From a virus, in the IMG/VR virus record IMGVR_UViG_3300017720_000026: DNA of 34,660 bases. One strand, 5' to 3'. The translations under genes and the position numbers were made by a program. Under the pieces are notes generated by a model that was given only the letters and a program-made list of their open reading frames with translations, was not told the DNA's origin and did not search any database. Every line of letters starts with the position of its first letter. Position 1 is the first letter of the stretch. Shown piece after piece: positions 1 to 22,362 of this stretch.

Positions 1-123
1 AAAGCAGAAACTGAATTAATTTCAGCCAATGTTTTTACTTTTGATGCTACTACTTCATGCCCACTTTCTAAACTATCTATTCGTTTATCTATTTCTCTAA
101 GTCTTTTTTCTACATCAGCTAAA
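1..123. repeat. Terminal direct repeat copy 1 (identical to 34538..34660); most likely circular-assembly overlap or terminal redundancy
   Basis: Bases 1..123 (aaagcagaaactgaattaatttc...catcagctaaa) recur exactly at 34538..34660. An ORF reads through the junction uninterrupted. Confidence 0.9.
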
Positions 124-5564: not shown

Positions 5565-5795
5565 TTAAAGGTCTAACTCTAATTGATCCAACGCTAGTTT
5601 GGTAGTCTCCTCTAAATTAATAAACATATTTAGCATATCTACCTGCCCTTTCCGTAGAAAAAGCGTCTTCTCGTCTTCTATCGTCTGTATGTTTTCTAGT
5701 GATTCAGCCATGTCCTCTAACTCTTTTATAAAAATAGTCCAGGCATCGCTATTAAACAAGTCAAGACGTTTTTCAAGAATTTCTCTGTCAGTCAT
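5565..5795 (-). CDS. Hypothetical protein (76 aa, acidic)
   Basis: ORF-track protein. The ATG overlaps the portal stop (TAATG at 5795). Confidence 0.55.
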   Translation of the reverse strand: MTDREILEKRLDLFNSDAWTIFIKELEDMAESLENIQTIEDEKTLFLRKGQVDMLNMFINLEETTKLALDQLELDL

Positions 5796-10067: not shown

Positions 10068-10261
10068 TCTTAGGTGGTCCAAATTGCTTCCCATGTGGGC
10101 ATGAGGGTAGAACAGGAATGCTGGGTTGGCTATGGGCCCCTCCCCGTGCCTCCTCAGGCCCACAAATGACCCCACTGGGCGTGTGGTTTTCCTGAGACTA
10201 CCTGAGAATTCCTGTGGAAATGAGAAAAAAAGAATACCTGAGTGTGGTTGTCAGGTATTTC

Positions 10262-10275
10262 CTGGGACATCCCAG
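10262..10275. promoter_or_regulatory. Palindrome site A: CTGGGA-CA-TCCCAG (2-nt spacer variant)
   Basis: Perfect inverted repeat read directly, 9 nt upstream of the sigma54-like element. Confidence 0.7.
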
Positions 10276-10284
10276 GAATTCAAT

Positions 10285-10300
10285 TGGCACACTTATTGCA
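10285..10300 (+). promoter_or_regulatory. Sigma54-type -24/-12 element (TGGCAC-N5-TTGCA)
   Basis: tTGGCACacttaTTGCAtt matches the 11 fixed bases TGGCAC-N5-TTGCW of the RpoN consensus at canonical spacing (the consensus G after TGGCAC is A here). It points toward the first early gene. Confidence 0.3.
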
Positions 10301-10369
10301 TTAAGCACAATTCATGCCAGTTATACCAGTGTGGTACTTATGCAACACTTATGGCCTCAAATGAAAAAT

Positions 10370-10384
10370 ATGGGATGATCCCAT
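10370..10384. promoter_or_regulatory. Palindrome site B: ATGGGAT-G-ATCCCAT
   Basis: Perfect 7+1+7 palindrome followed by AAAATAA. It lies 27-75 nt upstream of the candidate starts of the first early ORF. Confidence 0.7.
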
Positions 10385-10459
10385 AAAATAATTCTAGACA
10401 ATATCTGAGAATTGATGTCTATTGTCATCACCATTAATCAGTCAAAAGGATATAGAGCA

Positions 10460-11056
10460 ATGCATAACGTTGAAAACATCAATAAAGCTTTACGCCAAGC
10501 GGTTCATTCGGATGCTAAACACGCTGAGAACTTGGTCATGGAGCATTACCTGCCCATGTTTGAAATCATCCAGGCGGAGACCGGCGGAGCATGGCCGGAA
10601 AAGTCCCTCACTAAAAAGATGGTGGAGAATAGCGGAGTTCTCACGGACATGTTCGTATTTCTCACGCCGGAGCAGCGTTCTGAGTTTGCCAGGGATTGCA
10701 AATTTGTGAAGGAGAATTTTGATCCTGTAGTAGATGAAGCCCTGGCGAACGGATGGCGCAAACTGAGCGCAATTCGGAAGGCTATCCAGAAGGCTCAGAA
10801 GGCCGAGGAAGCAACCGAGGAGGTGGCCGAGGAAGCTGAGGAAGTAACCGAGGAAGCAACCGAGGAAGCAACCGAGGAAGCAACCGAGGAAACGGAAACA
10901 AAACCCCTGGAAGATGTAGACTATGTAGCGGTAATCGCTGCATTGCTTGCCGAGGCTCAACAGAACGGATTAGATCCCAAGAAGATTGCATCAAAAGCAC
11001 TCGCGGAAATAGCGGACCCCAACCCTCTGGAAATTCCTGAGGCATTCCGCCGCTAG
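10460..11056 (+). CDS. Highly acidic early protein with an EEATEE repeat (function unknown; DNA-mimic candidate)
   Basis: First ORF of the rightward arm. The start is uncertain (TTG 10412, ATG 10415 or ATG 10460); 10460 has AAAGGA upstream. The product has the E/D-rich stretch AEEATEEVAEEAEEVTEEATEEATEEATEETE. Confidence 0.6.
   Translation: MHNVENINKALRQAVHSDAKHAENLVMEHYLPMFEIIQAETGGAWPEKSLTKKMVENSGVLTDMFVFLTPEQRSEFARDCKFVKENFDPVVDEALANGWRKLSAIRKAIQKAQKAEEATEEVAEEAEEVTEEATEEATEEATEETETKPLEDVDYVAVIAALLAEAQQNGLDPKKIASKALAEIADPNPLEIPEAFRR
10808..10900 (+). repeat. Degenerate 12-nt tandem repeat (gaagcaaccgag) inside the acidic-protein gene
   Basis: Three perfect consecutive copies at 10853..10888, flanked by diverged copies (gaggtggccgag, gaagtaaccgag, gaaacggaaaca). 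Confidence 0.9.
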
Positions 11057-11067
11057 TGTTTCCTACA

Positions 11068-11100
11068 ATATCCCCTGGTTTGACAATGGCCAGGGGGTAT
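11068..11100 (+). other. 11-bp stem-loop after the acidic gene (one G-U pair), with TTGACA in the loop
   Basis: atatcccctgg (11068..11078) pairs with ccagggggtat (11090..11100). The loop is tttgacaatgg. No U-tract follows. Confidence 0.4.
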
Positions 11101-11127
11101 GATAGGACACACTAAAGGAGACAGGTG

Positions 11128-11208
11128 ATGTTTATGTTATGGTTATTTTTTATTTCAAGTGTAGTTATGTTTTTTTATTGTTTATGGTTTTTAAAGGAGA
11201 ACAAGTGA
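11128..11208 (+). CDS. 26-aa hydrophobic micro-ORF
   Basis: AAGGAG RBS. Hand translation: MFMLWLFFISSVVMFFYCLWFLKENK. The stop overlaps the next ATG (TGATG). It could instead be T-rich spacer. Confidence 0.3.
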   Translation: MFMLWLFFISSVVMFFYCLWFLKENK

Positions 11209-11825
11209 TGTTAGTTAAAGAAGCAATACAATCTGGTAAGATATCCAAAGGCAACAGCAAGATGCCAGGGACATCATACGCTATAGATGCTTTCGCCTGT
11301 AAGACGGGGAGCAAGTTAGCAGAAATCAAGGGTACACCTTGTGCATCCTGCTATGCCCGGAAGCTACAAAAGCTACGCCCTAGCGTGAACCAGGGATACA
11401 AGTCTAACCTGGAGAAGTGGCAAAATGCTAGCCAACAAACCTGGATTGAAGCAATGGTTTTTCAAATCAATAGATCGGGGACCAAATATCATAGATGGTT
11501 TGATAGTGGGGACCTGCAATCACGGACCATGTTGGATAGTATTATTGAGGTGTGCAAACGCACCCCGAACGTGAAACATTGGCTACCTACGCAGGAACGA
11601 GACATCATACGTGGCGTAAATACACCGGACAACCTAGTGATCCGTCTATCGGGGAGCAAGGTCAATGGTCGTGCCCCTAATGCTGACAACACTAGCACGG
11701 TATTTGACAAACACGGGCAACCCATAGGCCAGGAATGCCTAGCCTACACTCGCGGGAATAATTGTGGGGATTGTAGGGCATGTTGGAGTCCGTCCGTCAA
11801 AAACGTATCGTACAAGAAACACTAA
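11208..11825 (+). CDS. Cys-rich early protein (resembles the phage 'gene product 88' domain family)
   Basis: Start at ATG 11208 after AAGGAG. It contains GNSKMPG...TPCASCYARK...NNCGDCRACW cysteine motifs. The family assignment is from memory only. Confidence 0.5.
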   Translation: MLVKEAIQSGKISKGNSKMPGTSYAIDAFACKTGSKLAEIKGTPCASCYARKLQKLRPSVNQGYKSNLEKWQNASQQTWIEAMVFQINRSGTKYHRWFDSGDLQSRTMLDSIIEVCKRTPNVKHWLPTQERDIIRGVNTPDNLVIRLSGSKVNGRAPNADNTSTVFDKHGQPIGQECLAYTRGNNCGDCRACWSPSVKNVSYKKH

Positions 11826-11827
11826 AC

Positions 11828-11842
11828 CTGGGACCGTCCCAG
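11828..11842. promoter_or_regulatory. Palindrome site C: CTGGGAC-C-GTCCCAG
   Basis: Perfect 7+1+7 palindrome, 3 nt after the upstream stop and exactly 18 nt before ATG 11861. Context: aaaCCTGGGACCGTCCCAGAAAAttggagg. Confidence 0.8.
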
Positions 11843-11860
11843 AAAATTGGAGGTAAAACC

Positions 11861-11989
11861 ATGACTAAAACCGCGAGATCATATGACGAGGCTATCGAAT
11901 TGTTACGACTAAAAGATGAACAGAAGCAAGGTAAAAAAGGAGCTAGACAATGGACAAGAAATTTGGTATGGTGGATGTCGTCGCACTAG
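11861..11989 (+). CDS. Hypothetical 42-aa protein
   Basis: GGAGGT RBS. MTKTARSYDEAIELLRLKDEQKQGKKGARQWTRNLVWWMSSH. It overlaps the next micro-ORF by 40 nt. Confidence 0.4.
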   Translation: MTKTARSYDEAIELLRLKDEQKQGKKGARQWTRNLVWWMSSH

Positions 11990-12039
11990 CGATGGCACTT
12001 GCGGCGGTAATCTTTTTTATAGAGGTGATAATCAAATGA
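11950..12039 (+). CDS. 29-aa hydrophobic micro-ORF
   Basis: AAGGAG RBS 7 nt upstream. MDKKFGMVDVVALAMALAAVIFFIEVIIK. The stop overlaps ATG 12036 (ATGA). Confidence 0.35.
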   Translation: MDKKFGMVDVVALAMALAAVIFFIEVIIK

Positions 12040-12254
12040 AAAAAATAATACACATTAATCAACACGTTATCAAGGCAAACGCTAAGTCTGGAGAGCGTAA
12101 CCCAGTGATCACGGTCAAGACGTACAAGTCAAACGACTACGGCCACACAGTAGAGGTTGACGGTCCCTGTAAAATAGTGTATAGTCCAGACAAGCCGCTG
12201 TCCTGCGGTGCCAAAGTATGGATTGAAACTCAAGCAAAGGTAACAGTAAAATGA
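12036..12254 (+). CDS. Hypothetical protein (72 aa)
   Basis: GAGGTGA RBS. MKKIIHINQHVIKANAKSGERNPVITVKTYKSNDYGHTVEVDGPCKIVYSPDKPLSCGAKVWIETQ... I preferred this internal start to the track's 11916. Confidence 0.6.
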   Translation: MKKIIHINQHVIKANAKSGERNPVITVKTYKSNDYGHTVEVDGPCKIVYSPDKPLSCGAKVWIETQAKVTVK

Positions 12255-12487
12255 CAACACGCATATGGACAAAAACGGAGACGCAAGAGATTATCAAGGC
12301 GTTACGTTTAGCAGGGTACACCATCCCGCCAAAGAAGAACAGGTACTATAAAACCGAGGAGAAATACTCAAACAAAAACGGATCAGAACGTAGTTACTTT
12401 GTGGCACTTGACATGGGTGGAAATTACATGGTAAATTATCACCCTGAATTATTGATGGACCCGGAGGACGAACTCTATGGCATATAG
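12251..12487 (+). CDS. Hypothetical protein (78 aa)
   Basis: ORF-track protein with an ATGA overlap to the upstream gene. Confidence 0.55.
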   Translation: MTTRIWTKTETQEIIKALRLAGYTIPPKKNRYYKTEEKYSNKNGSERSYFVALDMGGNYMVNYHPELLMDPEDELYGI

Positions 12488-12659
12488 CAGACAGAAACTA
12501 GTGGACCAGTGCATGAGTGCGGTTAGACGCATGGGGTACGACGAGTGGTGCTGGGCGATGGAGTGCAGGTACAATGTCATGCCGGATTGGTGGTGGAATC
12601 CCACTGAGAAAGACAAGAAGTATAAGCATTATGTTGCAACTGGTACATGGGGTGCTTGA
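12477..12659 (+). CDS. Hypothetical Trp/Cys-rich protein (60 aa)
   Basis: ORF-track protein ...DEWCWAMECRYNVMPDWWWNPTEKDKKYKHY... Confidence 0.5.
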   Translation: MAYSRQKLVDQCMSAVRRMGYDEWCWAMECRYNVMPDWWWNPTEKDKKYKHYVATGTWGA

Positions 12660-12660
12660 T

Positions 12661-12750
12661 ATGTGGGAGAAAATTAGATTAGTTTTGTCGGATCACTGGG
12701 TATATTTTATCGTGACCTGGACCCTGATCTATATATCAGCGAGATTTTAA
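12661..12750 (+). CDS. 29-aa hydrophobic micro-ORF
   Basis: MWEKIRLVLSDHWVYFIVTWTLIYISARF. The ATG is 1 nt after the upstream stop. The RBS is weak. Confidence 0.3.
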   Translation: MWEKIRLVLSDHWVYFIVTWTLIYISARF

Positions 12751-12781
12751 GGTAAGTAAAAGACAAGTAAAGGAAAAGAAA

Positions 12782-12979
12782 ATGAGATGTAAAATTTGTG
12801 ACGCTAAACTAAAGGACGGAGAATTACTTAAGCGTGATCTGTTCACAGGTTTACCTCTTGACACATGCGGAAAGTGCATGGGTTCAATAGGTGAGGCGGT
12901 AGCGGAGGACTTTGAGTACATAGACGATGTTAATATTATCTCAAAGATTCCGCTTGACAATGAGGAGAATGATCTATAG
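12782..12979 (+). CDS. Small zinc-ribbon-like protein (65 aa) with an acidic tail
   Basis: CKICDAK...TCGKCMG (CxxC-x21-CxxC) with an acidic C-terminus. Confidence 0.6.
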   Translation: MRCKICDAKLKDGELLKRDLFTGLPLDTCGKCMGSIGEAVAEDFEYIDDVNIISKIPLDNEENDL

Positions 12980-12982
12980 AAT
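12954..12982 (+). promoter_or_regulatory. Near-consensus sigma70-type promoter (middle/replication operon)
   Basis: TTGACA (12954..12959), a 17-nt spacer, then TAGAAT (12977..12982). It overlaps the stop codon of 12782..12979 and fires into the 220-nt intergenic leader. Confidence 0.5.
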
Positions 12983-13039
12983 ACTTAAGAAGCCTAGGGA
13001 ATTAATCCTTTATATATTCATTAAAGTTATTTCCTAGGT

Positions 13040-13166
13040 ATTCTTAAGACTGAGAGTGTCATGGGGGGAACCTAGCACTAGGTGAGCGAGACCTCATAGC
13101 ACAAAGGCCTTACCTCTCTACCTTGTGTGGAGGCCGTACAGGGGTGACACTCTCAACCTTAAGAAT
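13040..13166 (+). repeat. Imperfect 22-bp inverted repeat enclosing 83 nt; putative structured 5' leader RNA or processing site
   Basis: attcttaagACtgagagtgtca (13040..13061) against tgacactctcaACcttaagaat (13145..13166): 20 of 22 positions pair. The interior is GC-rich with local hairpins at 13078..13099 and 13106..13135. Confidence 0.85.
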
Positions 13167-13168
13167 AT

Positions 13169-13183
13169 CTGGGATGGTCCCAT
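13169..13183. promoter_or_regulatory. Palindrome site D: CTGGGA-TGG-TCCCAT
   Basis: It directly follows the long inverted repeat and lies exactly 18 nt before ATG 13202. An A6 run and GGAAGGAAGG RBS follow. Confidence 0.75.
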
Positions 13184-13201
13184 AAAAAAGGAAGGAAGGT
13201 T

Positions 13202-13375
13202 ATGTCTACCAAGAACAAGAGGCGGTCTTCTCCAAAGAATCGGAGGAATCCAGAGAAGGTTGTGATGGATAAGTACTATCACCCCAAAGCCTTCAGGTCC
13301 CGCAAGCGTACCCTGTCTGCTACTGATGCGGATAAGGAGATCAAGGAATACATGAGAGGTGAGCATGACTCGTAA
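13202..13375 (+). CDS. Small basic protein (57 aa, below ORF-track cutoff)
   Basis: Hand translation: MSTKNKRRSSPKNRRNPEKVVMDKYYHPKAFRSRKRTLSATDADKEIKEYMRGEHDS. Strong purine-rich RBS. Confidence 0.5.
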   Translation: MSTKNKRRSSPKNRRNPEKVVMDKYYHPKAFRSRKRTLSATDADKEIKEYMRGEHDS

Positions 13376-13583
13376 AGCTATATGGTTTGCTGATGAGGCA
13401 CCACGGATAGGCTCTGGCTACAGGATAGTCAACGTCAAGAAGAGGGGAAGGAAGTGGGTCTATCTTGAGTACTGGCCTGGGGGTTCCGAAGGTCACAAGA
13501 TAAACGTGAGGCTCCGAAAGAGTGTATTCGAGAGGCTCGAAGAATTAACGGATCATCAACTAAAGATAGGAGGTACAGACTAA
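13365..13583 (+). CDS. Hypothetical protein (72 aa)
   Basis: ORF-track protein. The start is ATG 13365 or GTG 13359. Confidence 0.55.
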   Translation: MTRKAIWFADEAPRIGSGYRIVNVKKRGRKWVYLEYWPGGSEGHKINVRLRKSVFERLEELTDHQLKIGGTD

Positions 13584-13900
13584 TGGCTAAGAATCCAATG
13601 GGAAAGACGAGAGACGTAGACAATCCCTACGCCATATTTAGGTTCAAGGATTTTGAGATACGTGTTCTCAAGACTTATCAACTACCAAAGAATGAGGAGA
13701 AGAATATGTATGCACGTTGGTTTACTGCCGCTAAGTCACCCATGACCTATGGTCGCTGGGAGTATGGCGACACATACAAGCGAGAGGTGCTACCCTTTGA
13801 ACAAATAGCGTCCTCTCCAGAGTACGACCAAGCCTATGGGAAAGACGGTAAACCTGTAGACTTGACACCTAGGCCTACGCATGGTAGTATATTAGCATAA
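13583..13900 (+). CDS. Hypothetical protein (105 aa)
   Basis: GGAGGT RBS and a TAATG overlap with the upstream gene. Confidence 0.6.
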   Translation: MAKNPMGKTRDVDNPYAIFRFKDFEIRVLKTYQLPKNEEKNMYARWFTAAKSPMTYGRWEYGDTYKREVLPFEQIASSPEYDQAYGKDGKPVDLTPRPTHGSILA

Positions 13901-13923
13901 CCAATCAGACAGAAGGAGTTAAG

Positions 13924-14151
13924 ATGAAAGCACAGACTAAACTTTTAATGGATCATTTTCAGGGTGGTCGTTCGATCTCTAACTACGAGGCCCGTGATCT
14001 CTATCGGATCGCCAGTCTACCTCGTAGGATCAGTGACCTTGAAGAAATGGGGATAGTCATTACCCGACAACGGAAGGTAGACCCCACGGGGAGACGTTAT
14101 GTTCGCTATTCAATGCCCACCTCTAATCAACTAAAGGAGAACTATCTATGA
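13924..14151 (+). CDS. Small winged-helix / HTH DNA-binding protein
   Basis: 75 aa. ...GRSISNYEARDLYRIASLPRRISDLEEMGIVI... is typical of short phage wHTH proteins. AAGGAG RBS. Confidence 0.65.
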   Translation: MKAQTKLLMDHFQGGRSISNYEARDLYRIASLPRRISDLEEMGIVITRQRKVDPTGRRYVRYSMPTSNQLKENYL

Positions 14152-14522
14152 TTACCGAAGGTACAGTTGCATTTTCAAACCTCGCTGAGACTGAGCGTTA
14201 CAATGGACAGGACACGGGCAAGTATTCCATCGTCCTCACTCTGGAACCTGACGAGGCGGCGAAGCTGGCCGAGACAGGGGTGAAGCTGAAGGAGTACAAG
14301 AACCAGCCCCAGCGCAAGTTTGTAACCAAGTTCCCTGGCTTCTCCGTCCTTGACGCTGACGGTGAGTCCATTGCCAAGTTCATCCCATATGGTTCTAGGG
14401 TGCGGGTAATGTGGGAACCCAGCAAACCACACCCTACTCACGGTGTTGCTCCGTACTTCAAGAAGATCAAGGTACTGGAGATGGCAGAGGGTGGTGACGG
14501 TGCAGACGACGAGGACTTTTAA
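14148..14522 (+). CDS. ssDNA-binding protein (T7 gp2.5-like, short)
   Basis: 124 aa, directly upstream of primase-helicase. OB-like N-terminus (GTVAFSNLAETERYNGQDTGKYSIVLTL). Acidic C-terminus ending in Phe (GGDGADDEDF), as in T7 gp2.5. Confidence 0.65.
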   Translation: MITEGTVAFSNLAETERYNGQDTGKYSIVLTLEPDEAAKLAETGVKLKEYKNQPQRKFVTKFPGFSVLDADGESIAKFIPYGSRVRVMWEPSKPHPTHGVAPYFKKIKVLEMAEGGDGADDEDF

Positions 14523-16156
14523 TGCTCCAGTCTAACTTCATAAGCAAGGCACCCTGCCCCTCCTGTCGTAGTAACGGAGAAGATAAGACGGGGGATAACC
14601 TCGCAGTCTACGATGACGGGCATGGGTACTGCTTTAAGTGCGGTCATATTGAGAGGGACGGGGGTGCAACTCCCCCTCCCACTGAAAACCTGGGACGGTC
14701 CCAGAAAACGAGAGGATTGGAAATGTCCGGCACATCAGGACCCATCAAGGATAGAAATATATCTCAACGAATAGTCGAGAAGTTTGGGGTAACTCTTGAG
14801 GACGACAAGCATCACTACCCCTACTATGACAAGGACACTGGCAACCTAGTGGGAACCAAGGTCCGTAATGTAAATGCAAAAGATTTTTATACCACCGGAA
14901 CACTGGAAAACACTGGCTTGTTTGGTATGAGCCACTGGGCCAGCGGTGGTAAGTTCATCACGGTCACGGAGGGGGAACTAGATGCTCTCGCCGTGGCCGA
15001 GATGTTCGACGGCAAGTGGCCCGTGGTCAGCATCAAACGGGGTGCCTCCTCCGCATCCAAAGACATCAAGGAGAACCTTGAGTGGCTGGAGACATTCGAT
15101 AAGGTGGTCATCTGTTTTGACAACGATGCCGCTGGACAGAAGGCCGCTGATGAGGTGGTCTCTCTGTTCTCTCCCAACAAGGCTAAGGTAGTACGTCTGC
15201 CCATGAAGGACGCCGCCGATATGCTGACGGCAGGGAGGGTGCAGGAGTTCGTCAAGTGCTGGTGGGACGCTAAGGAATACAAGCCAGCAGGAGTGGTCTC
15301 GCTGTCCGACGAGGTATGTTGGGATGCTTTTGTCACCCGTGGCAAGGCAGAGATCATACCCTTCCCTTCCACCTTCGGTACTCTCAACAAGATGATGAAC
15401 GGTGGCATGGCCGCTGGTGAGGTCACGGTGATAGGTGCCTTGACCTCCGTAGGTAAGACTACCTTCGTCACCAACCTACTCTATGGTATGTACAAGGAGA
15501 CCAACCGTAGGATCGGAGCGGTGTTCCTTGAGGCATCCATAGGTGAGATTACGGAGAACGTAGTGGGTGTAGTGGGTGGCACCAATATCAAGGTGATACC
15601 TGAGGAGGAGCGGGACTACAGTTCGTACCGCCCTCACTATGAGGAACTACAGGAGACCGACAGGATACACCTTGACGACCATGCCGGAGCCTCAGACATC
15701 GAGGACTTGTTCTCTCGTATGAGGTATCTAATCAAGGGTATGGACTGTGAAGTGTTGATTCTTGATCCACTACAGGCGGCAGTGCAGTCCAATGAGAACG
15801 GGATGATCGACTCCTTTATGGACAGGTGCCTGAAGCTGGCCAAGGAAACCAATGCGGCCATCATCATCGTGTCACACCTACGCAAGCCCAGCGTTAAGGA
15901 CCCTCACGATGTCAACGAGTACGACATGAAGGGGTCCGGTTCGATCAATCAGATCGCATTCAATACCATACTCCTGAGCAGGGACAAGATGTCGGAGGAC
16001 GACTACGCTAGGAACTGTACCAAGGTGCAGCTAGTGAAGTGCCGCCGCACGGGACGCACGGGACACGCTGGATGGCTGTACTATGAGGACGATACCTCCC
16101 GTATGGTAGCGGGTGTGGCACCTGAGGTACAGGAGGTGGCCCATGAAGAGTTCTAA
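14522..16156 (+). CDS. Bifunctional DNA primase-helicase (T7 gp4-like)
   Basis: Zinc finger CPSC-x21-CFKC, TOPRIM VICFDNDAAGQKAA, Walker A GALTSVGKTTF, Walker B VLILDPLQ, and an acidic C-terminus ending in Phe (VAHEEF). Confidence 0.9.
   Translation: MLQSNFISKAPCPSCRSNGEDKTGDNLAVYDDGHGYCFKCGHIERDGGATPPPTENLGRSQKTRGLEMSGTSGPIKDRNISQRIVEKFGVTLEDDKHHYPYYDKDTGNLVGTKVRNVNAKDFYTTGTLENTGLFGMSHWASGGKFITVTEGELDALAVAEMFDGKWPVVSIKRGASSASKDIKENLEWLETFDKVVICFDNDAAGQKAADEVVSLFSPNKAKVVRLPMKDAADMLTAGRVQEFVKCWWDAKEYKPAGVVSLSDEVCWDAFVTRGKAEIIPFPSTFGTLNKMMNGGMAAGEVTVIGALTSVGKTTFVTNLLYGMYKETNRRIGAVFLEASIGEITENVVGVVGGTNIKVIPEEERDYSSYRPHYEELQETDRIHLDDHAGASDIEDLFSRMRYLIKGMDCEVLILDPLQAAVQSNENGMIDSFMDRCLKLAKETNAAIIIVSHLRKPSVKDPHDVNEYDMKGSGSINQIAFNTILLSRDKMSEDDYARNCTKVQLVKCRRTGRTGHAGWLYYEDDTSRMVAGVAPEVQEVAHEEF
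14690..14704. promoter_or_regulatory. Palindrome site E: CTGGGAC-G-GTCCCAG, inside the primase-helicase gene
   Basis: Perfect 7+1+7 palindrome. It shares aaaCCTGGGAC.GTCCCAGAAAA with site C and lies exactly 18 nt before the in-frame ATG 14723, with GAGAGGA between. Confidence 0.8.
14723..16156 (+). CDS. Predicted internal-start isoform lacking the zinc finger (gp4B-like, 477 aa)
   Basis: In-frame Met68 is preceded by the same palindrome / A-run / SD cassette, at the same spacing, as two independent gene starts. T7 gp4B initiates at Met64, just after the zinc-binding domain. Confidence 0.35.
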   Translation: MSGTSGPIKDRNISQRIVEKFGVTLEDDKHHYPYYDKDTGNLVGTKVRNVNAKDFYTTGTLENTGLFGMSHWASGGKFITVTEGELDALAVAEMFDGKWPVVSIKRGASSASKDIKENLEWLETFDKVVICFDNDAAGQKAADEVVSLFSPNKAKVVRLPMKDAADMLTAGRVQEFVKCWWDAKEYKPAGVVSLSDEVCWDAFVTRGKAEIIPFPSTFGTLNKMMNGGMAAGEVTVIGALTSVGKTTFVTNLLYGMYKETNRRIGAVFLEASIGEITENVVGVVGGTNIKVIPEEERDYSSYRPHYEELQETDRIHLDDHAGASDIEDLFSRMRYLIKGMDCEVLILDPLQAAVQSNENGMIDSFMDRCLKLAKETNAAIIIVSHLRKPSVKDPHDVNEYDMKGSGSINQIAFNTILLSRDKMSEDDYARNCTKVQLVKCRRTGRTGHAGWLYYEDDTSRMVAGVAPEVQEVAHEEF

Positions 16157-16319
16157 AGAAGAGGGGGTGGGGATAGCAGGGACAATGGACCAGGATGTTC
16201 CCGTTGGGATGTTCAAGTGTAACTACTGTGGCTCTGTCCATGAGACCCCTGAGGTAGCCAAGGCAGTACCTATGCAGTTCTGGTGCAGTAAAGATTGCTG
16301 GGAGAAGGACAATGCCTAA
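16143..16319 (+). CDS. Small zinc-ribbon-like protein (58 aa)
   Basis: AGGAGG RBS. ATG 16143 lies inside the end of the helicase gene. Contains CNYCGS...CSKDCW. Confidence 0.5.
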   Translation: MKSSKEEGVGIAGTMDQDVPVGMFKCNYCGSVHETPEVAKAVPMQFWCSKDCWEKDNA

Positions 16320-16758
16320 AGTACCTGCTAGAAATCCTTATGATAGAAAACATCATTCAAGGCTGAGATCAAGAAGGGACTCTTATATTTTAAGAAAGAC
16401 AGGAGGTACGTGTGAGTTGTGTAAAGATCACTGGCCTTCGGACATACTTTGTTTTCATCATCTTAATCCCGAAGATAAAGAGTTTGGTTTGGATGTAAGA
16501 AAATGGAGAGCTAAATATTTAACTAATGTCTTGAAGGAAGCTGATAAGTGTGCTATCTTATGTATGAACTGTCACGCTCTAGAACACAAAGCTCTAAACA
16601 GAGGTGAGACTTTAATCAATGACCCAGACGCTTATCTTAGATATAGAAACCACCGCTTTACAAAACAGCCAGACCTCTTCGATAGAGCGGATATGGATGA
16701 TAGGAACGATGGACCTAGAGACGAAGATCAAGAAGAGTTTCCTTACGCCTTCGTTTAG
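16312..16758 (+). CDS. HNH endonuclease (homing-endonuclease-like)
   Basis: CELC...LCFHHLNPEDKEFG...CMNCHALEH is a classic HNH/beta-beta-alpha-Me motif. GC is much lower than in the flanking genes. The 3' 140 nt overlap the DNA polymerase start in another frame. Confidence 0.85.
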   Translation: MPKVPARNPYDRKHHSRLRSRRDSYILRKTGGTCELCKDHWPSDILCFHHLNPEDKEFGLDVRKWRAKYLTNVLKEADKCAILCMNCHALEHKALNRGETLINDPDAYLRYRNHRFTKQPDLFDRADMDDRNDGPRDEDQEEFPYAFV

Positions 16759-18364
16759 TGACGCAACAGAGATACAGGAGTACATCAATGGATATTCTAC
16801 TGTGGTTGGTCATAACATTATTGGGTTTGACAGTCCTGTAATGAACGACCTGTTGGGAATTACACTGCCTAACGTAGTTGATACCCTTGTTTTGTCCCGA
16901 CTGTACAACCCTCAGATGGAGGGAGGACATTCACTCAGGGCATGGGGGGAGAGACTAGGGTTTCGGAAGGGAGATCACGACGACTGGTCTACCCTGTCGG
17001 ATGAGATGATTGAGTACTGCGAGAGAGACTTGGACGTTACTGCCAAGCTGTACACTGAACTAACTGAAAAGCTGGAGGAGTTTCAGGGAGAGTCCATAGA
17101 ACTAGAACATGAAGTGCAACGTATTATAACTAAGCAGGAGAACAATGGATGGGAACTAGATGTTGAACGAGCGTTTGATATACAGGCAAAACTTAAGCAG
17201 CGAAGCATGGAAGTGGAGAGGGAGGTTCATAAAAGGTTCACGCCTCTTGCGGTCTTCGATAAGGAGGTCACTCCCAAATATAACAAGGACGGAAGCCTTA
17301 GTGTGGTTGGGCTTAAGTTTCTTGGGGATCGGTATACTGATGTGGCTGGTCCATTTAGTAGAGTTTCTTTTCCCGAATTTAATCTAGGGTCAAGACAACA
17401 GATAGCCCGTCACCTACAGTTCTTTGGGTGGAAGCCTAAGTTGTTTACTGAGAAGGGACAGGCCATCGTAGACGAAGGAGTTTTATCCAGGGTTGATATA
17501 CCTGAGGCCAAGCTAATCGCAGAGTATCTACTGATACAGAAGAGAACGGCACAGGTGCAGTCATGGATAGAAGCGGTAGAGGAGGATGGTAGGGTCCACG
17601 GTAGGGTCAACCCTATCGGTGCAGTGACGGGGCGTATGACACACAGCAGCCCCAACATGGCACAGGTCCCCGCCTCTTACTCTCCATACGGTACTGAATG
17701 CCGTGAGTGTTGGACAGTACCAAAAGGTTACAGGCTTGTGGGTATTGATGCCGCTGGCCTGGAGTTGAGAATGTTAGCCCACTACATGAATGATAAGGAG
17801 TACACAAATGAAGTCACAAATGGAGATGTCCATACAGCCAATCAAAAAGCTGCTGGACTTGCAACAAGAGACCTCGCTAAAACTTTTATCTATGCTTTCC
17901 TCTACGGCGCAGGAGACGCCAAAATCGGAACTATTGTTGGAGGTTCTAAGCGAGACGGAGCAAAACTTAAGGAGAAGTTTCTCTCTAACACACCGTCTCT
18001 TCGAGATTTACGCGAAAGGGTTTCACGATCTGCGCGGAGAGGATACCTCAAAGGACTCGACGGAAGAAAACTAGTACTGCGGAGTGAACACGCCGCCTTG
18101 AATACACTTCTACAGTCAGCAGGTGCAATAATAATGAAGAAGTCCTTGACGATACTTGATGAGTATGCTACAATACATAATATAGAGTACAAGTTTGTAG
18201 GTAATATTCACGATGAGTTTCAAGTGGAGGTCAAAGAGGACCAAGCAGAGAAGCTAGGCTGGCTGGCCGTAGAGTGTATCAAGGCTGCTGGAGATCGGAT
18301 GTCGCTTAAATGCCCACTGGACGGAGAGTACAAGGTGGGACAATCGTGGGCAGAGACCCACTAA
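16619..18364 (+). CDS. Family A DNA polymerase with 3'-5' exonuclease domain (T7 gp5-like)
   Basis: Exo I LILDIETT, Exo II GHNIIGFD, Exo III YCERDLDVT; pol motif A VGIDAAGLELRMLAH, motif B RDLAKTFIYAFLYGAG, motif C GNIHDEFQVEV. Confidence 0.9.
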   Translation: MTQTLILDIETTALQNSQTSSIERIWMIGTMDLETKIKKSFLTPSFSDATEIQEYINGYSTVVGHNIIGFDSPVMNDLLGITLPNVVDTLVLSRLYNPQMEGGHSLRAWGERLGFRKGDHDDWSTLSDEMIEYCERDLDVTAKLYTELTEKLEEFQGESIELEHEVQRIITKQENNGWELDVERAFDIQAKLKQRSMEVEREVHKRFTPLAVFDKEVTPKYNKDGSLSVVGLKFLGDRYTDVAGPFSRVSFPEFNLGSRQQIARHLQFFGWKPKLFTEKGQAIVDEGVLSRVDIPEAKLIAEYLLIQKRTAQVQSWIEAVEEDGRVHGRVNPIGAVTGRMTHSSPNMAQVPASYSPYGTECRECWTVPKGYRLVGIDAAGLELRMLAHYMNDKEYTNEVTNGDVHTANQKAAGLATRDLAKTFIYAFLYGAGDAKIGTIVGGSKRDGAKLKEKFLSNTPSLRDLRERVSRSARRGYLKGLDGRKLVLRSEHAALNTLLQSAGAIIMKKSLTILDEYATIHNIEYKFVGNIHDEFQVEVKEDQAEKLGWLAVECIKAAGDRMSLKCPLDGEYKVGQSWAETH

Positions 18365-18367
18365 TTT

Positions 18368-18382
18368 CTGGGACGATCCCAG
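18368..18382. promoter_or_regulatory. Palindrome site F: CTGGGA-CGA-TCCCAG
   Basis: Starts 4 nt after the polymerase stop codon (18362..18364). It lies 16 nt before ATG 18399 with an AGGAGAG RBS between. Confidence 0.75.
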
Positions 18383-18398
18383 AATATAGGAGAGTATA

Positions 18399-19289
18399 AT
18401 GGAAAAGAACATGGATACCCTAGTCGAAGACATCTATACCCTCATGGTCAACAGAAACACTGGCGATGGTGTGGACGTTGAGGAGGAAATAGACAAATTC
18501 GGAGAGGCCATGAAGGAAATCATGCGTAAGGAGTTCCTTCCAGGTGGACGTAGGGACGGTAGGAAACTACGCCTTTCCTCAGTGGGTAAAAATGATCTTA
18601 TCCAATGGTTCTCCTACAACGGCTACAGGGGTGAGCGTATCCAACCCCACACTCTTATCAAGTTTATGTATGGTCACATGATTGAGGAGATGATCCTGCT
18701 TCTTGTCCGTCTCACCGGACACAAGGTAACGGATGAACAGAAGGAAGTGTCCGTTGGTGGAGTCAGGGGTCACATGGACTGTAAGATTGATGGCACTGTG
18801 GTTGATGTTAAGTCCACTACTAAGTTTGGTTTAATGAAGTTTAACGATAGAACCCTAGCCGCAAAAGATGACTTTGGTTATGTCGATCAGATCAAAGCAT
18901 ACGCCCATGCGGAGGGAGATCGTAAGTGGGCATGGCTTGCTATGGACAGAGACAGCGGTAAGCTGGCTGTTCTTGAGTATGACTTGGACAACACAAGTGA
19001 TCCTATGTACGAGCATTTCTCAGGGGATATTGAGGAAAGGATTGAGCATGTAAAAAAGTCTGTAAAGCAGGAAGACCGACCTTCAAGATGCTATTCTCCC
19101 GAAGAGGATGGGAAGTCAGGCAACTTAAAACTGTGTACTACCTGCTCTTATTGCCAGTACAAAAAGTTTTGTTATCCAGAAGTCCGCGCATTTCACACTG
19201 GCTCAGGTCCAAAGTTTTTAACTACCGTAGTAAACGTCCCTAAGAACCGTCAGGGTAAACCTTATCCTGAAATTAACCTAGATGAATAG
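18399..19289 (+). CDS. PD-(D/E)XK nuclease with a C-terminal Cys cluster (Cas4/RecB-like exonuclease)
   Basis: GHMDCKIDGTVVDVKS matches D...(D/E)xK. The C-terminal CTTCSYCQYKKFC (C-x2-C-x2-C-x5-C) suggests a metal or Fe-S site. Confidence 0.7.
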   Translation: MEKNMDTLVEDIYTLMVNRNTGDGVDVEEEIDKFGEAMKEIMRKEFLPGGRRDGRKLRLSSVGKNDLIQWFSYNGYRGERIQPHTLIKFMYGHMIEEMILLLVRLTGHKVTDEQKEVSVGGVRGHMDCKIDGTVVDVKSTTKFGLMKFNDRTLAAKDDFGYVDQIKAYAHAEGDRKWAWLAMDRDSGKLAVLEYDLDNTSDPMYEHFSGDIEERIEHVKKSVKQEDRPSRCYSPEEDGKSGNLKLCTTCSYCQYKKFCYPEVRAFHTGSGPKFLTTVVNVPKNRQGKPYPEINLDE

Positions 19290-19827: not shown

Positions 19828-20005
19828 ACAGTTCATTCGGAGACTTGCAGCTATTACTGATCCTGAATTTCTTTGTGACTTTCTGGACATTACCAGTGAA
19901 GATATCCTTGAGAGATTTGAGGACATAGTTGAGGACACTATGGATAACCTGCGACGAGAGTTTGATGTTGACATTCAAGATGAAGAGGAGTATAATAATG
20001 AATAG
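19811..20005 (+). CDS. Hypothetical acidic protein (64 aa)
   Basis: GGAGGA RBS. MPLSNEQFIRRLAAITDPEF... I preferred this internal start to the track's 19766. Confidence 0.5.
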   Translation: MPLSNEQFIRRLAAITDPEFLCDFLDITSEDILERFEDIVEDTMDNLRREFDVDIQDEEEYNNE

Positions 20006-20294
20006 GAATGAAGTTCTTAGAGAAGCTCAGACTATCTTAAATGGCCAACGTGCCAACGACTATGGAGATGCTTACGACAATCACAAACGTATTGCTGCTC
20101 TATGGAACACATACCTAGACGAAGAGTACGGACTAAAACCAGAGGACGTTGCAGTTATGATGATACTTCTTAAGGTAGCTAGGTTAGTTCATAAGCATAC
20201 TTCGGATAGCTTTGTGGACATAGCAGGGTATGCTGCTCTAGCAGAAGAAATGTCCAGTACTGAAAATGTTATTGAGTTTACCCCTGAAAGGTAG
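19998..20294 (+). CDS. Conserved phage protein (DUF6378-like)
   Basis: MNRNEVLREAQTILNGQRANDYGDAYDNHKRIAALWNTYL...DVAVMMILLKVARL fits a widespread phage family of unknown function. GAGGAG RBS. Family name from memory. Confidence 0.55.
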   Translation: MNRNEVLREAQTILNGQRANDYGDAYDNHKRIAALWNTYLDEEYGLKPEDVAVMMILLKVARLVHKHTSDSFVDIAGYAALAEEMSSTENVIEFTPER

Positions 20295-22218: not shown

Positions 22219-22362
22219 AGAGAATTAAGTACTGGTTTAGGTGGGGCTTGAGATGCTGGTGGAGACACACGGTTCACTTTAGGAATTGGGCAGAAGGTAA
22301 GAATAAAAATATTCCTAAGTATCTCTCTGGAAAATCTAACGACTCCTAACAACGTCTAGGCC

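What the first reader, a model, noticed from the sequence alone, without database searches (positions are those of the whole stretch)
10262..18382. Six-copy 15-bp palindrome CTGGGA-N3-TCCCAG confined to the rightward arm, at a fixed distance from start codons
The sites are 10262..10275 (2-nt spacer), 10370..10384, 11828..11842, 13169..13183, 14690..14704 and 18368..18382.

Three sites lie exactly 18 nt upstream of an ATG (11861, 13202, 14723) and one lies 16 nt upstream (18399). Each of these has an A-run and a purine-rich SD in between. Sites at 11828 and 14690 share 22 of 23 nt (AAACCTGGGAC[C/G]GTCCCAGAAAA).

Scanning by eye for ctggga/atggga and tcccag/tcccat, I found no full site anywhere in the leftward arm. 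I found only non-palindromic half-matches elsewhere in the rightward arm (for example ctgggac at 21207, inside the RNR gene). SD consensus does not explain this, and the phage encodes no RNA polymerase whose promoter it could be.

Possible roles:
- An operator set for a dimeric DNA-binding protein. The 75-aa wHTH at 13924..14151 is the obvious candidate.
- A 6-bp/triloop RNA hairpin acting as a translational operator or 5'-end stabiliser.
- Conserved module-boundary sequences that promote recombination.
Basis: seen in the sequence. Interest (0 to 1): 0.8.

Follow-up and report, generated by a model that had tools for sequence, protein, structure and literature searches.

The report
Start-linked palindrome in phage early arm
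A short palindrome (TGGGA, 2-3 bases, TCCCA) recurs through the early/replication genes of an uncultured marine phage family, usually just before ribosome-binding sites and once beside the first early promoter; it looks like the binding-site set of one dedicated regulator, but that regulator and its mode of action are unproven.

Summary
All six sites are at the stated coordinates. Three match CTGGGA-N3-TCCCAG exactly, against 0.01 expected by chance.

The motif is conserved at matching positions in dozens of related uncultured phage contigs (81 distinct sites). The full element is WWWY-[M-TGGGA-Y(N)R-TCCCA-K]-AAWWY.

- **Two classes.** About 70% of sites sit 16-27 nt before a start codon, just 5' of the Shine-Dalgarno. 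One or two sites per genome lie in the early control region, the second centred about 50 bp upstream of the early sigma-70 promoter start.
- **Correction.** The "start codon" at 14723 is an internal start inside the primase-helicase ORF, like T7 gp4A/gp4B. That palindrome is coding sequence.
- **Nature of the constraint.** The five core pairs never vary and there is no covariation. The degenerate positions are mirror-symmetric. Yet the spacer is 2 or 3 nt within one genome, and the sites sit next to ribosome-binding sites.
- **Best reading (about 0.38).** One dimeric regulator reads the site as DNA at the promoter and as an RNA stem-loop at ribosome-binding sites, as shown for phage Aca2.
- **Candidate binder.** Gene 1 (10460-11056) does, but its fold matches nothing known.

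This is a new variant of a known kind; the closest analogues are mycobacteriophage SAS/ESAS and stoperators.

The parts
10262..10275 (.). Control-region site 1, CTGGGA-CA-TCCCAG (2-nt spacer). It is part of a longer near-perfect palindrome, TTCCTGGGACATCCCAGGAA (10259-10278).
   Evidence: Conserved in L010-L012, L017-L027 and L233. It lies 108 bp from site 2 (108-111 or 129-131 bp in relatives).
10370..10384 (.). Control-region site 2, ATGGGA-TGA-TCCCAT. It lies 10 nt upstream of a -35-like hexamer.
   Evidence: In relatives this site ends 7-10 nt before TTGACC-16-TATAAT (L011/L012), TTGACG (L009, L010) or TGGACA-17-TATGTT (L023). That puts its centre about 50 bp upstream of the transcription start.
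10395..10423 (+). Putative early rightward promoter (TAGACA-17-TCTATT). It is weak in this genome and placed by alignment with stronger versions in relatives.
   Evidence: Inferred, not shown.
10460..11056 (+). Gene 1 (198 aa): a helical N-domain, an acidic (EEATEE)n linker and a small C-domain. It is the only gene whose presence tracks the motif, so it is the candidate cognate factor.
   Evidence: Present in 17 motif-bearing loci and 0 of 57 motif-less loci. It is swapped out together with five palindromes in L009 versus L002. 37 homologues were found, with no family or fold match.
11828..11842 (+). Start-associated site, CTGGGA-CCG-TCCCAG. It lies 2 nt after the stop of the GP88-like gene (TAA 11823-11825). 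SD GGAGG is at 11849-11853 and ATG at 11861.
   Evidence: The site and SD are conserved in L010-L012, while the gene that follows differs.
12954..12982 (+). Sigma-70-type promoter TTGACA-17-TAGAAT, driving the unit that begins with site 13169.
   Evidence: The same promoter ends 67-71 nt before the matching site in relatives, and 186 nt before it here because of an inserted element.
13169..13183 (+). Start-associated site, CTGGGA-TGG-TCCCAT. A purine-rich SD is at 13189-13199 and ATG at 13202 (57-aa basic protein).
14522..16156 (+). Primase-helicase ORF (Cys4 zinc finger, Toprim, DnaB-like helicase). It contains site 14690 in frame and an internal start at 14723.
14690..14704 (+). Start-associated site inside coding sequence, CTGGGA-CGG-TCCCAG (LGRSQ). 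SD GAGAGGA is at 14710-14716 and the internal ATG at 14723 (Met68, like T7 gp4B).
   Evidence: The palindrome is invariant even at synonymous positions across relatives. It is absent from L024, whose linker differs.
18146..18174 (+). Sigma-70-type promoter TTGACG-17-TACAAT (with an upstream TG) inside the 3' end of the DNA polymerase gene.
   Evidence: A promoter sits 191-193 nt before the PolA/exonuclease site in every clade examined.
18368..18382 (+). Start-associated site, CTGGGA-CGA-TCCCAG. It lies 3 nt after the PolA stop (TAA 18362-18364). SD AGGAGAG is at 18388-18394 and ATG at 18399 (Cas4-like exonuclease).
   Evidence: It is missing as a clean 22-nt indel in L004/L011.

Best explanation
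The palindromes are the binding-site set of one sequence-specific, probably dimeric, regulator carried by the same early gene module. The candidate is the gene 1 product.

Proposed mechanism:
- The copy beside the first early promoter is read as double-stranded DNA. It is centred about 50 bp upstream of the start, with a partner copy 108-131 bp further upstream.
- The other copies lie between each internal promoter and the first ribosome-binding site, between cistrons, or before the internal start of the primase-helicase. These are also read after transcription, as a 5-bp stem-loop (UGGGA/UCCCA) that presents the same base pairs as one DNA half-site, 5-9 nt from the Shine-Dalgarno.
- One factor could therefore set both transcription and translation of the whole early/replication arm.

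This mode of action has been demonstrated for the phage regulator Aca2.

**Shown:** the motif, its conservation, its placement and its co-occurrence with gene 1.
**Inferred:** that a protein binds it, which protein, and the two levels of action.
For: **A real element under sequence selection.**
- Three exact copies against 0.01 expected.
- 81 distinct sites in relatives.
- The core TGGGA/TCCCA is invariant in all of them, even at synonymous positions inside the primase ORF. Nothing is conserved beyond about 5 nt on either side.

**Marks of a two-fold symmetric reader.**
- The degenerate positions are mirror images: Y at -1 and R at +1; C/A at the first position and G/T at the last; the spacer starts with Y and ends with R in 81 of 81 sites.
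- These positions assort independently. The outer pair is CG 33, CT 26, AG 12, AT 5.
- The five core pairs never vary, the outer pair is unpaired in 17 of 43 sites, and covariation is no better than in shuffles.

**DNA-level placement.**
- Site 2 ends 7-10 nt before a -35 hexamer in several lineages.
- In L011 both control-region sites lie between divergent 11/12 promoters, and their flanks are T-rich on the + strand.

**RNA-level placement.**
- 53 of 81 sites have an SD at +5 to +9 and a start codon 16-27 nt downstream.
- This holds in long leaders where there was room elsewhere, and at the internal start of the primase-helicase.
- Sites are enriched downstream of 10/12-or-better sigma-70 promoters (31/92 against 13% background), at 18 to 193 nt from the -10.
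- Spacers of 2 and 3 nt coexist in one genome.
- The only two core variants with proper flanks are U.G-compatible on the sense strand.
- The hairpin forms in local RNA folds and leaves the SD unpaired.
- T-runs after the hairpin are avoided on the sense strand of transcribed sites.

**Link to gene 1.**
- Gene 1 is present in 17 of 17 covered motif loci and none of 57 motif-less loci.
- L009 and L002 are 85-92% identical outside a swapped 3.4-kb early module. L009's module carries gene 1 and five palindromes; L002's carries neither.

**Precedent.** Aca2 binds an inverted repeat in promoter DNA and conserved hairpins next to the ribosome-binding site in the 5' UTR. Aca motifs also occur between genes and before several operons (PMC13551039).
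Against: - No binding has been shown.
- Gene 1 has no recognisable DNA- or RNA-binding fold. Foldseek finds no match at E below 0.1 against PDB or BFVD, for the full model or for the confident N-domain (pLDDT 88).
- The co-occurrence with gene 1 rests on few independent evolutionary events.
- L001/L002 keep one perfect site without gene 1.
- A DNA-binding dimer would have to accept half-sites 0 or 1 bp apart.
- The promoter-proximal site lies upstream of the -35 rather than overlapping the promoter as in Aca2.
- It is not established that the control-region sites are untranscribed. A conserved block at 10078-10107 could hide an upstream promoter.
- The site at the PolA/exonuclease junction is dispensable in a close relative.
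- Dual DNA/RNA regulators are so far rare.
Confidence: 0.38

Rival explanations
1. DNA-only operator set. A dimeric repressor binds the palindromes as double-stranded DNA: beside the early promoter, and as elongation roadblocks between each promoter and its first gene. This resembles the stoperators of Cluster A mycobacteriophages. Closeness to start codons would simply reflect that the only free space in a compact genome is between a stop codon and the next SD.
For: - Mirror-symmetric degenerate positions, an invariant core and no covariation.
- Control-region sites next to the -35 and between divergent promoters.
- AT-rich flanks on both sides whichever way they are oriented.
- Sites downstream of promoters.
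- Most intergenic gaps are only about 35 nt.
Against: - Spacers of 2 and 3 nt coexist in one genome.
- The site stays next to the SD in a leader of 70 to about 210 nt where other positions were free.
- A site sits exactly at the internal translation start of the primase-helicase.
- The two core variants are U.G-compatible on the sense strand only.
Confidence: 0.2
2. RNA-only translational operator. A phage or host RNA-binding protein recognises the stem-loop and its A-rich flanks on the mRNA. It represses or activates the adjacent ribosome-binding site on many early messages, as T4 RegA does.
For: - Tight coupling to the SD and start codon, including the internal start.
- Sense orientation and A-rich flanks.
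- Variable loop length.
- Sites lie in 5' UTRs of sigma-70 transcripts.
- The hairpin is predicted in every local fold.
Against: - The mirror-symmetric degeneracy and the mismatched outer pair are not expected of an RNA hairpin.
- Control-region sites lie upstream of the promoter, and in L011 between divergent promoters with reversed flanks.
- In L009 one site is followed directly by an intrinsic terminator rather than a gene.
Confidence: 0.13
3. Cis-acting RNA hairpin with no dedicated factor. It would act as a 5' stabiliser after cleavage in the A/U-rich flank, a barrier to exonucleases, or an insulator that keeps the ribosome-binding site unpaired. This would be analogous to the RNase III hairpins between T7 early genes.
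For: - Position between cistrons and in leaders.
- The SD is left single-stranded in folds.
- The sister module in L002 has three roughly 50-nt hairpins in comparable positions, and these do show compensatory changes.
Against: - The sequence is conserved, not the structure: no compensatory change in 81 sites across clades whose proteins differ by more than 20%.
- The stem is only 5-6 bp, too short for RNase III.
- A close relative expresses the exonuclease gene without the site.
Confidence: 0.1
4. Selfish or recombination-linked mini-palindrome. The element is a tiny mobile unit or a linker sequence that spreads with ribosome-binding cassettes and promotes gene shuffling, like the PeSL cassettes of T4-type phages. 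It would have little regulatory role of its own.
For: - A clean 22-nt presence/absence difference.
- Direct AAAT..AAAAT flanks.
- Different genes follow the same site in close relatives.
- The motif occurs in phages with distant replication genes.
- Modular exchange of early genes is evident.
Against: - Matching sites are kept across clades.
- Strict restriction to one arm and one orientation.
- No transposase or homing enzyme was found.
- One documented gene insertion is flanked by duplicated SD cassettes rather than palindromes.
- Palindromes are prone to deletion, so their retention argues for selection.
Confidence: 0.06
5. Terminators for antisense (leftward) transcription. On the minus strand each site reads as a G+C-rich hairpin followed by a purine and then three to six T.
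For: - The terminator scan flags 10385, 11843, 13182 and 14705 on the minus strand, and equivalents in L009 and L002.
- In L023/L028 the same core followed by a T-run sits right after the RNR stop on the sense strand.
Against: - The U-tracts are short and begin with a purine.
- Site 1 and site 18368 have none.
- The idea does not explain the invariant sequence or the closeness to ribosome-binding sites.
- There is no such element at the convergent junction near 22750.
Confidence: 0.04
6. Hairpin promoter for an unrecognised phage RNA polymerase, as in coliphage N4. In N4, early promoters are 5-7-bp stems with 3-nt loops centred at -11, followed by a four-base run that measures the distance to the start.
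For: The geometry resembles N4 early promoters: a short stem, a triloop, a four-base homopolymer run, then variable sequence (PMC4496689).
Against: - No RNA polymerase was detected by Pfam, PHROGs or PDB sequence search. The 981-aa protein looks like an ejection protein.
- Loop bases vary, and the run is A on the non-template strand rather than the template strand.
- Sites lie inside transcripts from good sigma-70 promoters.
- One site is followed at once by a terminator.
Confidence: 0.02

Closest known systems
Aca2 (and Aca1) anti-CRISPR-associated regulators of phages: HTH dimers that bind promoter inverted repeats and 5'-UTR RNA hairpins (PMC13551039 and the work it cites)
   Same: - One phage regulator with sites in promoter DNA and conserved hairpins next to the ribosome-binding site.
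- Motifs also occur between genes within operons and before several neighbouring operons.
- The RNA stem presents a duplex like the DNA site.
   Different: - No Aca-type HTH (DUF1870) or other recognisable DNA-binding domain tracks the motif here.
- The promoter-proximal site lies upstream of the -35 instead of overlapping the promoter.
- There are six or more sites spread over 8 kb, including replication genes.
- No anti-defence gene has been identified.
[quoted passage not shown]
   Same: - A short repeat restricted to the non-structural half of the genome.
- One orientation, a few nucleotides from start codons, conserved across subclusters while the downstream genes differ.
- ESAS are inverted repeats with a variable spacer whose departures do not support RNA pairing.
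   Different: - SAS is asymmetric and contains the SD itself.
- ESAS arms are 17 bp with 4-13-bp spacers.
- The sequences are unrelated and the hosts are actinobacteria.
- Here the element is a 14-15-bp palindrome separate from the SD, and it also occurs beside a promoter.
[quoted passage not shown]
   Same: Many copies of one repressor site lie inside operons, in short intergenic gaps, oriented with transcription.
   Different: - Stoperators are asymmetric 13-bp sites on both arms of a temperate phage, bound by the immunity repressor.
- Here the core is palindromic, only one arm carries it, and no repressor or integrase was found.
PeSL (promoter-early stem-loop) cassettes of T4-type phages (PMC2839356)
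   Same: - Repeated cassettes between a stop codon and the next ATG in early regions, containing a G-run/C-run stem-loop and the SD.
- Associated with gene shuffling.
   Different: - PeSLs always include a strong sigma-70 promoter, and their stem-loops act as terminators.
- Here only a subset has a promoter nearby (18-193 nt away).
- There is no U-tract on the sense strand, and the stem sequence is invariant.
RNase III processing hairpins between T7 early genes; N4 virion-polymerase hairpin promoters (PMC4496689); T4 RegA operators (T7 and T4 from my own knowledge)
   Same: - A T7-type replication module with structured elements in front of early cistrons.
- A short stem, triloop and four-base run, as in N4.
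- One factor acting on many early ribosome-binding sites, as with RegA.
   Different: - The stem is far too short for RNase III.
- No phage RNA polymerase was found.
- RegA sites are unstructured and overlap the AUG.

Membership tests
Aca2-type dual DNA/RNA regulator system | An HTH (DUF1870 or other Aca family) regulator encoded in the regulated operon | tested here: not met
   Pfam, PHROGs and NCBIfam scans of all early ORFs found only an HTH_39 wHTH at 13924-14151. Its presence does not track the motif. Gene 1 has no recognisable fold.
Aca2-type dual DNA/RNA regulator system | An inverted repeat overlapping the operon promoter | tested here: not met
   The promoter-proximal palindrome ends 7-10 nt upstream of the -35, centred at about -50. 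It is adjacent to the promoter, not overlapping it.
Aca2-type dual DNA/RNA regulator system | Conserved hairpin(s) in the 5' UTR next to the ribosome-binding site | tested here: met
   53 of 81 sites have an SD 5-9 nt after the palindrome. Sites lie downstream of sigma-70 promoters. The hairpin is predicted in local folds.
Aca2-type dual DNA/RNA regulator system | Protein binding to both the DNA and RNA forms; anti-defence cargo genes | not testable with these tools
   This needs gel shifts and functional assays.
Cluster K SAS/ESAS | Restricted to the non-structural arm, in one orientation, within a few nt of start codons | tested here: met
Cluster K SAS/ESAS | A 13-bp asymmetric consensus GGGATAGGAGCCC that contains the SD; 17-bp inverted repeats with 4-13-bp spacers | tested here: not met
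   The motif here is M-TGGGA-Y(N)R-TCCCA-K, separate from the SD, with a 2-3-nt spacer.
Cluster A stoperators | An asymmetric 13-bp repressor site, many copies on both arms, in a temperate phage with an immunity repressor | tested here: not met
   The core is palindromic and only one arm carries it. No integrase or repressor family was detected.
PeSL cassettes | A strong sigma-70 promoter within every cassette | tested here: not met
   There is no -35 enrichment upstream of sites. A 10/12-or-better promoter lies within 200 nt for only 31 of 92 sites.
PeSL cassettes | The stem-loop acts as a terminator or attenuator | tested here: inconclusive
   The sense strand has A-runs, not U-runs, after the hairpin. 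Only the L023/L028 copy after RNR has a T-run.
N4-type hairpin promoter | A virion or phage single-subunit RNA polymerase gene | tested here: not met
   None was found by Pfam, PHROGs or PDB sequence search. No structure model was made of the large unknown proteins.
N4-type hairpin promoter | A 5-7-bp stem and 3-nt loop with conserved loop purines centred at -11 | tested here: not met
   The stem length fits, but the loop is Y-N-R or only 2 nt, and the central base varies (PMC4496689).
RNase III processing site | About 20 bp of double-stranded RNA | tested here: not met
   The stem is 5-8 bp.
Intrinsic terminator (sense strand) | A G+C-rich hairpin followed by a U-tract | tested here: not met
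   Positions +2 to +4 are A in 75-95% of sites.
Rfam families / tRNA | A match to a curated RNA model | tested here: not met
   There were no Rfam matches at E up to 1 and no tRNA or tmRNA.

The most novel reading that the evidence does not exclude
A previously unrecognised family of phage regulators (gene 1, a helical protein with no detectable relatives of known fold) reads the same 5-bp duplex, TGGGA/TCCCA, in two forms: as a two-fold symmetric DNA site at its own promoter, and as RNA stem-loops in front of ribosome-binding sites. In this way it would coordinate transcription and translation of a whole early/replication arm in RNA-polymerase-less T7-like marine phages. This would include the ratio of long to short primase-helicase isoforms, through a site embedded in coding sequence.
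Probability: 0.25. Interest if true: 0.8.

Novelty: new variant of a known kind. Interest (0 to 1): 0.6.

Why it matters
T7-like marine podophages that lack their own RNA polymerase are abundant, but how they time early, replication and late genes is essentially unknown.

- **A testable handle.** This gives a 25-nt element with a precise consensus, a defined set of target genes and a single candidate factor. It sits in a phage family known only from metagenomes.
- **Wider reach for a recent finding.** If the two-level reading is right, the discovery that phage DNA-binding regulators also bind RNA hairpins at ribosome-binding sites would extend from anti-CRISPR operons to whole replication modules.
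- **A model for unexplained repeats.** It would also offer a way to study the start-associated repeats of mycobacteriophages, which remain unexplained.
- **An unusual case of overlapping constraints.** The site inside the primase-helicase ORF, just before an internal start, is a regulatory palindrome kept intact within coding sequence.

Tried and rejected
- **Sigma-70 promoter at the sites.** No -35 enrichment, and the flank is a poor -10. Other registers put the transcription start beyond the ATG.
- **Hidden RNA polymerase or N4-type promoter.** Pfam, PHROGs and PDB sequence searches of the 981-aa and other large proteins found nothing. The 981-aa protein has glycine-rich segments typical of ejection proteins.
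- **wHTH 13924-14151 as binder.** Its phyletic pattern contradicts this.
- **Known RNA families and tRNAs.** None found.
- **Host identification by scanning bacterial genomes for the motif.** Only scattered single chance hits.
- **Metagenome scan.** Mostly chance hits. Six further family contigs showed the same pattern.
- **Megablast against cultured phages.** No match. The closest cultured relatives are distant: PolA up to 53% identical, primase 33-36%, portal 22-28%.
- **Gene 1 structure.** Two AlphaFold models and three Foldseek searches, plus a profile search of PDB sequences, found no significant match.
- **A replacement small palindrome in motif-less relatives.** None found. Only a family-wide CTTAAG-type repeat appeared.
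- **Isolated half-sites.** They occur at chance level.
- **Covariation test of the hairpin.** No signal.
- **Literature search for the motif.** Nothing relevant.

Full report
**1. What the window is**

The 34,660-base window is a complete phage genome; bases 1-123 repeat at 34538-34660. A rightward arm (about 10.4-22.7 kb) carries T7-type replication genes: a primase-helicase, family A DNA polymerase, Cas4-like exonuclease, endonuclease I and ribonucleotide reductase. Two leftward arms carry the terminase, an SU10-type portal and adaptor, the capsid, a lysozyme and several large proteins of unknown function. No RNA polymerase family was detected.

There is no near relative among cultured phages. 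The best protein matches are distant: PolA up to 53% identical to pelagiphages HTVC103P/104P, primase 33-36%, portal 22-28%. Homologues come from marine metagenomes, including Tara.

**2.

- All six sites are at the stated coordinates.
- The strict pattern has 3 matches against 0.01 expected.
- With up to 2 mismatches only 10370 and 13169 are added, and nothing appears elsewhere in the genome.
- Distances to the ATGs (18, 18, 18 and 16 nt) and the intervening A-runs and SDs are as described.
- Isolated half-sites are at chance level on both arms.

**3. Two corrections**

First, ATG 14723 is Met68 of the primase-helicase ORF 14522-16156. The N-terminal 67 residues hold a Cys4 zinc finger (CPSC...CFKC). 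The palindrome is translated in frame as LGRSQ, in the linker before an internal SD and ATG. In distant relatives this stretch is continuous coding sequence. The arrangement mirrors the long and short forms of T7 gene 4 (my own knowledge).

Second, sites 10262 and 10370 lie in the 670-bp divergent control region and are not next to a start codon.

**4. Conservation and anatomy**

A scan of viral contigs with the motif, and a search for primase relatives, produced about 90 loci.

- Relatives whose primase is at least 77% identical carry 4-10 copies each, at matching positions. These are two sites in the control region, one after the GP88-like gene, one before the 57-aa basic protein gene, one in the primase linker, and one after the PolA stop.
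- Relatives at 68% identity or less have none.
- More distant contigs (L001/L002, L005, L009) do carry the motif. So do further metagenome contigs.

Eighty-one distinct sites give the consensus WWWY | M-TGGGA-Y(N)R-TCCCA-K | AAWWY.

- The core never varies.
- The spacer is 3 nt in 47 sites and 2 nt in 34, and both lengths occur in one genome.
- Nothing is conserved from -5 to -45.
- A purine-rich SD follows at +8 to +12.

**5. Two classes of site**

*Class A.* About 53 of 81 sites have an SD core starting at +5 to +9 and a start codon 16-27 nt downstream, often 1-3 nt after the previous stop codon. The palindrome keeps close to the ribosome-binding site even where the leader is long. In the unit starting at promoter 12954-12982 it sits at the far end of a leader of 70 to about 210 nt.

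Sites are 2.6-fold enriched downstream of good sigma-70 promoters (31/92 against 13%). The distance from the -10 ranges from 18 to 193 nt. This includes a promoter inside the PolA 3' end that lies 191-193 nt before the PolA/exonuclease site in every clade.

*Class B.* These are the one or two control-region copies. The second ends 7-10 nt before a -35 hexamer in several lineages, so its centre is about 50 bp upstream of the start. In L011 both copies lie between divergent 11/12 promoters, and their flanks are T-rich on the + strand.

**6. What the sites are not**

- **Not sigma-70 promoters.** There is no -35 signal and only a poor -10.
- **Not sense-strand terminators.** A-runs follow the hairpin.
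- **Not RNase III sites.** The stem is 5-8 bp.
- **Not a known RNA family or tRNA**.
- **Not clearly N4-type promoters.** The resemblance to N4 hairpin promoters is real: a short stem, a triloop and a four-base ruler (PMC4496689). However, no polymerase gene was found, the loop varies, the sites lie inside sigma-70 transcripts, and in L009 one site is followed immediately by an intrinsic terminator.
- **Not obligatory.** Close relatives L004/L011 lack the PolA/exonuclease copy as a clean 22-nt indel, and the SD and ATG are otherwise unchanged.

**7. Sequence, not structure, is conserved**

On 43 distinct 3-nt-spacer sites the five core pairs never vary. The outer pair is unpaired in 17 of 43, and covariation is no better than in shuffles.

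The degenerate positions are mirror images of one another:
- Y at -1 and R at +1
- C/A at the first position and G/T at the last
- Y at the start of the spacer and R at its end, in all 81 sites

They assort independently: CG 33, CT 26, AG 12, AT 5, against 34.6, 24.1, 10.2 and 7.1 expected. That is the signature of a two-fold symmetric reader of double-stranded DNA with the half-site Y-M-TGGGA-Y.

The contrast with the sister phage is instructive. L002's alternative early module carries three hairpins of about 50 nt in comparable positions, and those do show compensatory changes.

**8. Features that point to RNA**

- Closeness to ribosome-binding sites, including an internal one.
- Spacers of 2 and 3 nt side by side. 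This is harmless for a hairpin loop but awkward for a DNA-binding dimer.
- The only two core variants with proper flanks are U.G-compatible on the sense strand.
- The hairpin appears in all local RNA folds, with the SD left free.

The flank asymmetry is explained if AT-rich flanks are required but a T-run after the hairpin is avoided on transcribed strands, where it would terminate transcription. Upstream flanks can be T-rich. Downstream flanks are A-rich at class A sites. In L011/L012, site 2 is T-rich on both sides. The one sense-strand copy with a T-run sits after the last gene of the arm in L023/L028.

**9. Candidate factor**

Gene 1 (10460-11056) passes it. It is found in all 17 motif-bearing loci that cover the region and in none of 57 motif-less loci.

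L009 and L002 are 85-92% identical outside a swapped early module of about 3.4 kb. L009's module has gene 1 and five palindromes. L002's has neither, although one perfect site survives further downstream.

Gene 1 encodes a confident helical N-domain (pLDDT 88), an acidic repeat linker and a small C-domain. Neither Foldseek (PDB, BFVD) nor profile searches find relatives of known function. The link is therefore correlative and rests on few independent events.

**10. Synthesis**

- A DNA-only reading explains the symmetry and the promoter-proximal copies. It does not explain the spacer variation or the coupling to ribosome-binding sites.
- An RNA-only reading does the reverse.
- The reading that fits all features has one dimeric regulator recognising the TGGGA/TCCCA duplex both in DNA and in the RNA stem. 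This is the documented behaviour of Aca2, and partly of Aca1. Their motifs also occur between genes and before several operons (PMC13551039).

I give this reading 0.38, DNA-only 0.20, RNA-only 0.13, a factor-free RNA hairpin 0.10 and the remaining ideas 0.12 in all.

Membership in the Aca family is not claimed. No Aca-type domain tracks the motif, and the promoter site does not overlap the promoter.

**11. Comparison with what is known, and novelty**

The closest descriptive analogue is the SAS/ESAS system of Cluster K mycobacteriophages. It is restricted to the non-structural arm, has one orientation, sits next to start codons, and has inverted repeats that do not behave as RNA hairpins. Its function was unknown in 2011 and remained untested in 2025 (PMC3203893, PMC12699233). 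Stoperators and PeSL cassettes (PMC2839356) share some features but each fails a defining test.

I found no description of this motif or this phage family. It is best filed as a new variant of a known kind of phage cis-element, with a specific and testable mechanism.

Noticed in passing
window 14522-14723: The primase-helicase has a T7 gp4A/gp4B-like layout. A Cys4 zinc-finger N-terminus (residues 1-about 45) is followed by a linker and an internal SD+ATG at Met68. Both a long and a short isoform are therefore probably made.
   Followed up: partly
window 9846/9856, 12984/12993, 13033/13043, 13158; also L010, L024, L036, L049, L065: A second repeat: pairs or triplets of CTTAAG/CCTAGG/CTTAGG spaced 9-10 bp apart. 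They sit at the divergent control region and right at the start of the 12954 transcription unit. This repeat is shared by clades that lack the TGGGA palindrome, so it is a likely operator of a family-wide regulator.
   Followed up: partly
window about 13050-13165: A window-specific insertion of about 115 nt in the leader of the 13202 gene, absent from the 99%-identical relative L010. It has inverted-repeat ends (arms 13032-13061 and 13145-13174, 87% complementary) and a duplicated CTTAAGA. It looks like a miniature inverted-repeat element or an inserted structured RNA.
   Followed up: partly
window 10078-10107, 10191-10243 and 10329-10348: The control region also holds three other features. 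One is a block conserved across clades (TCCAAATTGCTTCCCATGTGGGCATGAGGG). Another is a set of CCTGAG(A) repeats (CCTCAGAAC repeats in the L017 clade). The third is an imperfect 20-bp palindrome (GTGTGGTACTTATGCAACAC) that recurs in L009 as GTGTTGCATATTTGTCACAC. Their roles are unknown; they could be an origin or further operators.
   Followed up: no
window 18146-18174: A sigma-70-type promoter inside the 3' end of the DNA polymerase gene. It is conserved 191-193 nt upstream of the exonuclease start region in all clades examined.
   Followed up: partly
window 19968-19996: A perfect-consensus promoter (TTGACA-17-TATAAT, 12/12) lies within ORF 19929-20294. Its -10 ends one base before an ATG at 19998, and an SD sits in its spacer. 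A transcript from it would start inside that gene.
   Followed up: no
window 10803-10925: Tandem 9-12-nt repeats encode an acidic (E-E-A/V-T)n stretch in gene 1. Its length varies among homologues.
   Followed up: partly
window 18362-18399 versus L004 11620-11665: A clean 22-nt presence/absence difference covers the palindrome and its AT flanks, between the PolA stop and the exonuclease SD.
   Followed up: yes
L017 1650-1900 versus L023 6750-6790: An extra 62-aa gene in L017 is flanked on both sides by the same ribosome-binding cassette, AAAGGAAACTGAAC(T/A)ATG. This suggests gene gain or loss by recombination between repeated translation-initiation regions.
   Followed up: partly
L002 4835-4896, 5410-5471, 7204-7265: The alternative early module of a sister phage has three copies of a roughly 50-nt hairpin (about 22 bp; z-scores -2.5 to -6) with compensatory differences between copies. 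One copy ends about 25 nt before a start codon. They resemble T7-type RNase III sites.
   Followed up: partly
L023 18429 and L028 11304: The same palindrome core (CTGGGACATCCCAC), flanked by T-runs, sits immediately after the ribonucleotide reductase stop codon. It looks like an intrinsic terminator at the end of the rightward arm. The window has no equivalent at 22218-22260.
   Followed up: partly
L009 5706-5719: A different palindrome (TGTCCA-AA-TGGACA) occupies the position about 46 bp upstream of the start of a strong internal promoter (TTGACA-17-TATAGT, 5723-5751).
   Followed up: no
window 1-123 and 34538-34660: An identical 123-nt terminal repeat. The contig is a complete genome, but I cannot tell whether this is a true direct terminal repeat or an assembly overlap of a circularly permuted genome.
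   Followed up: no
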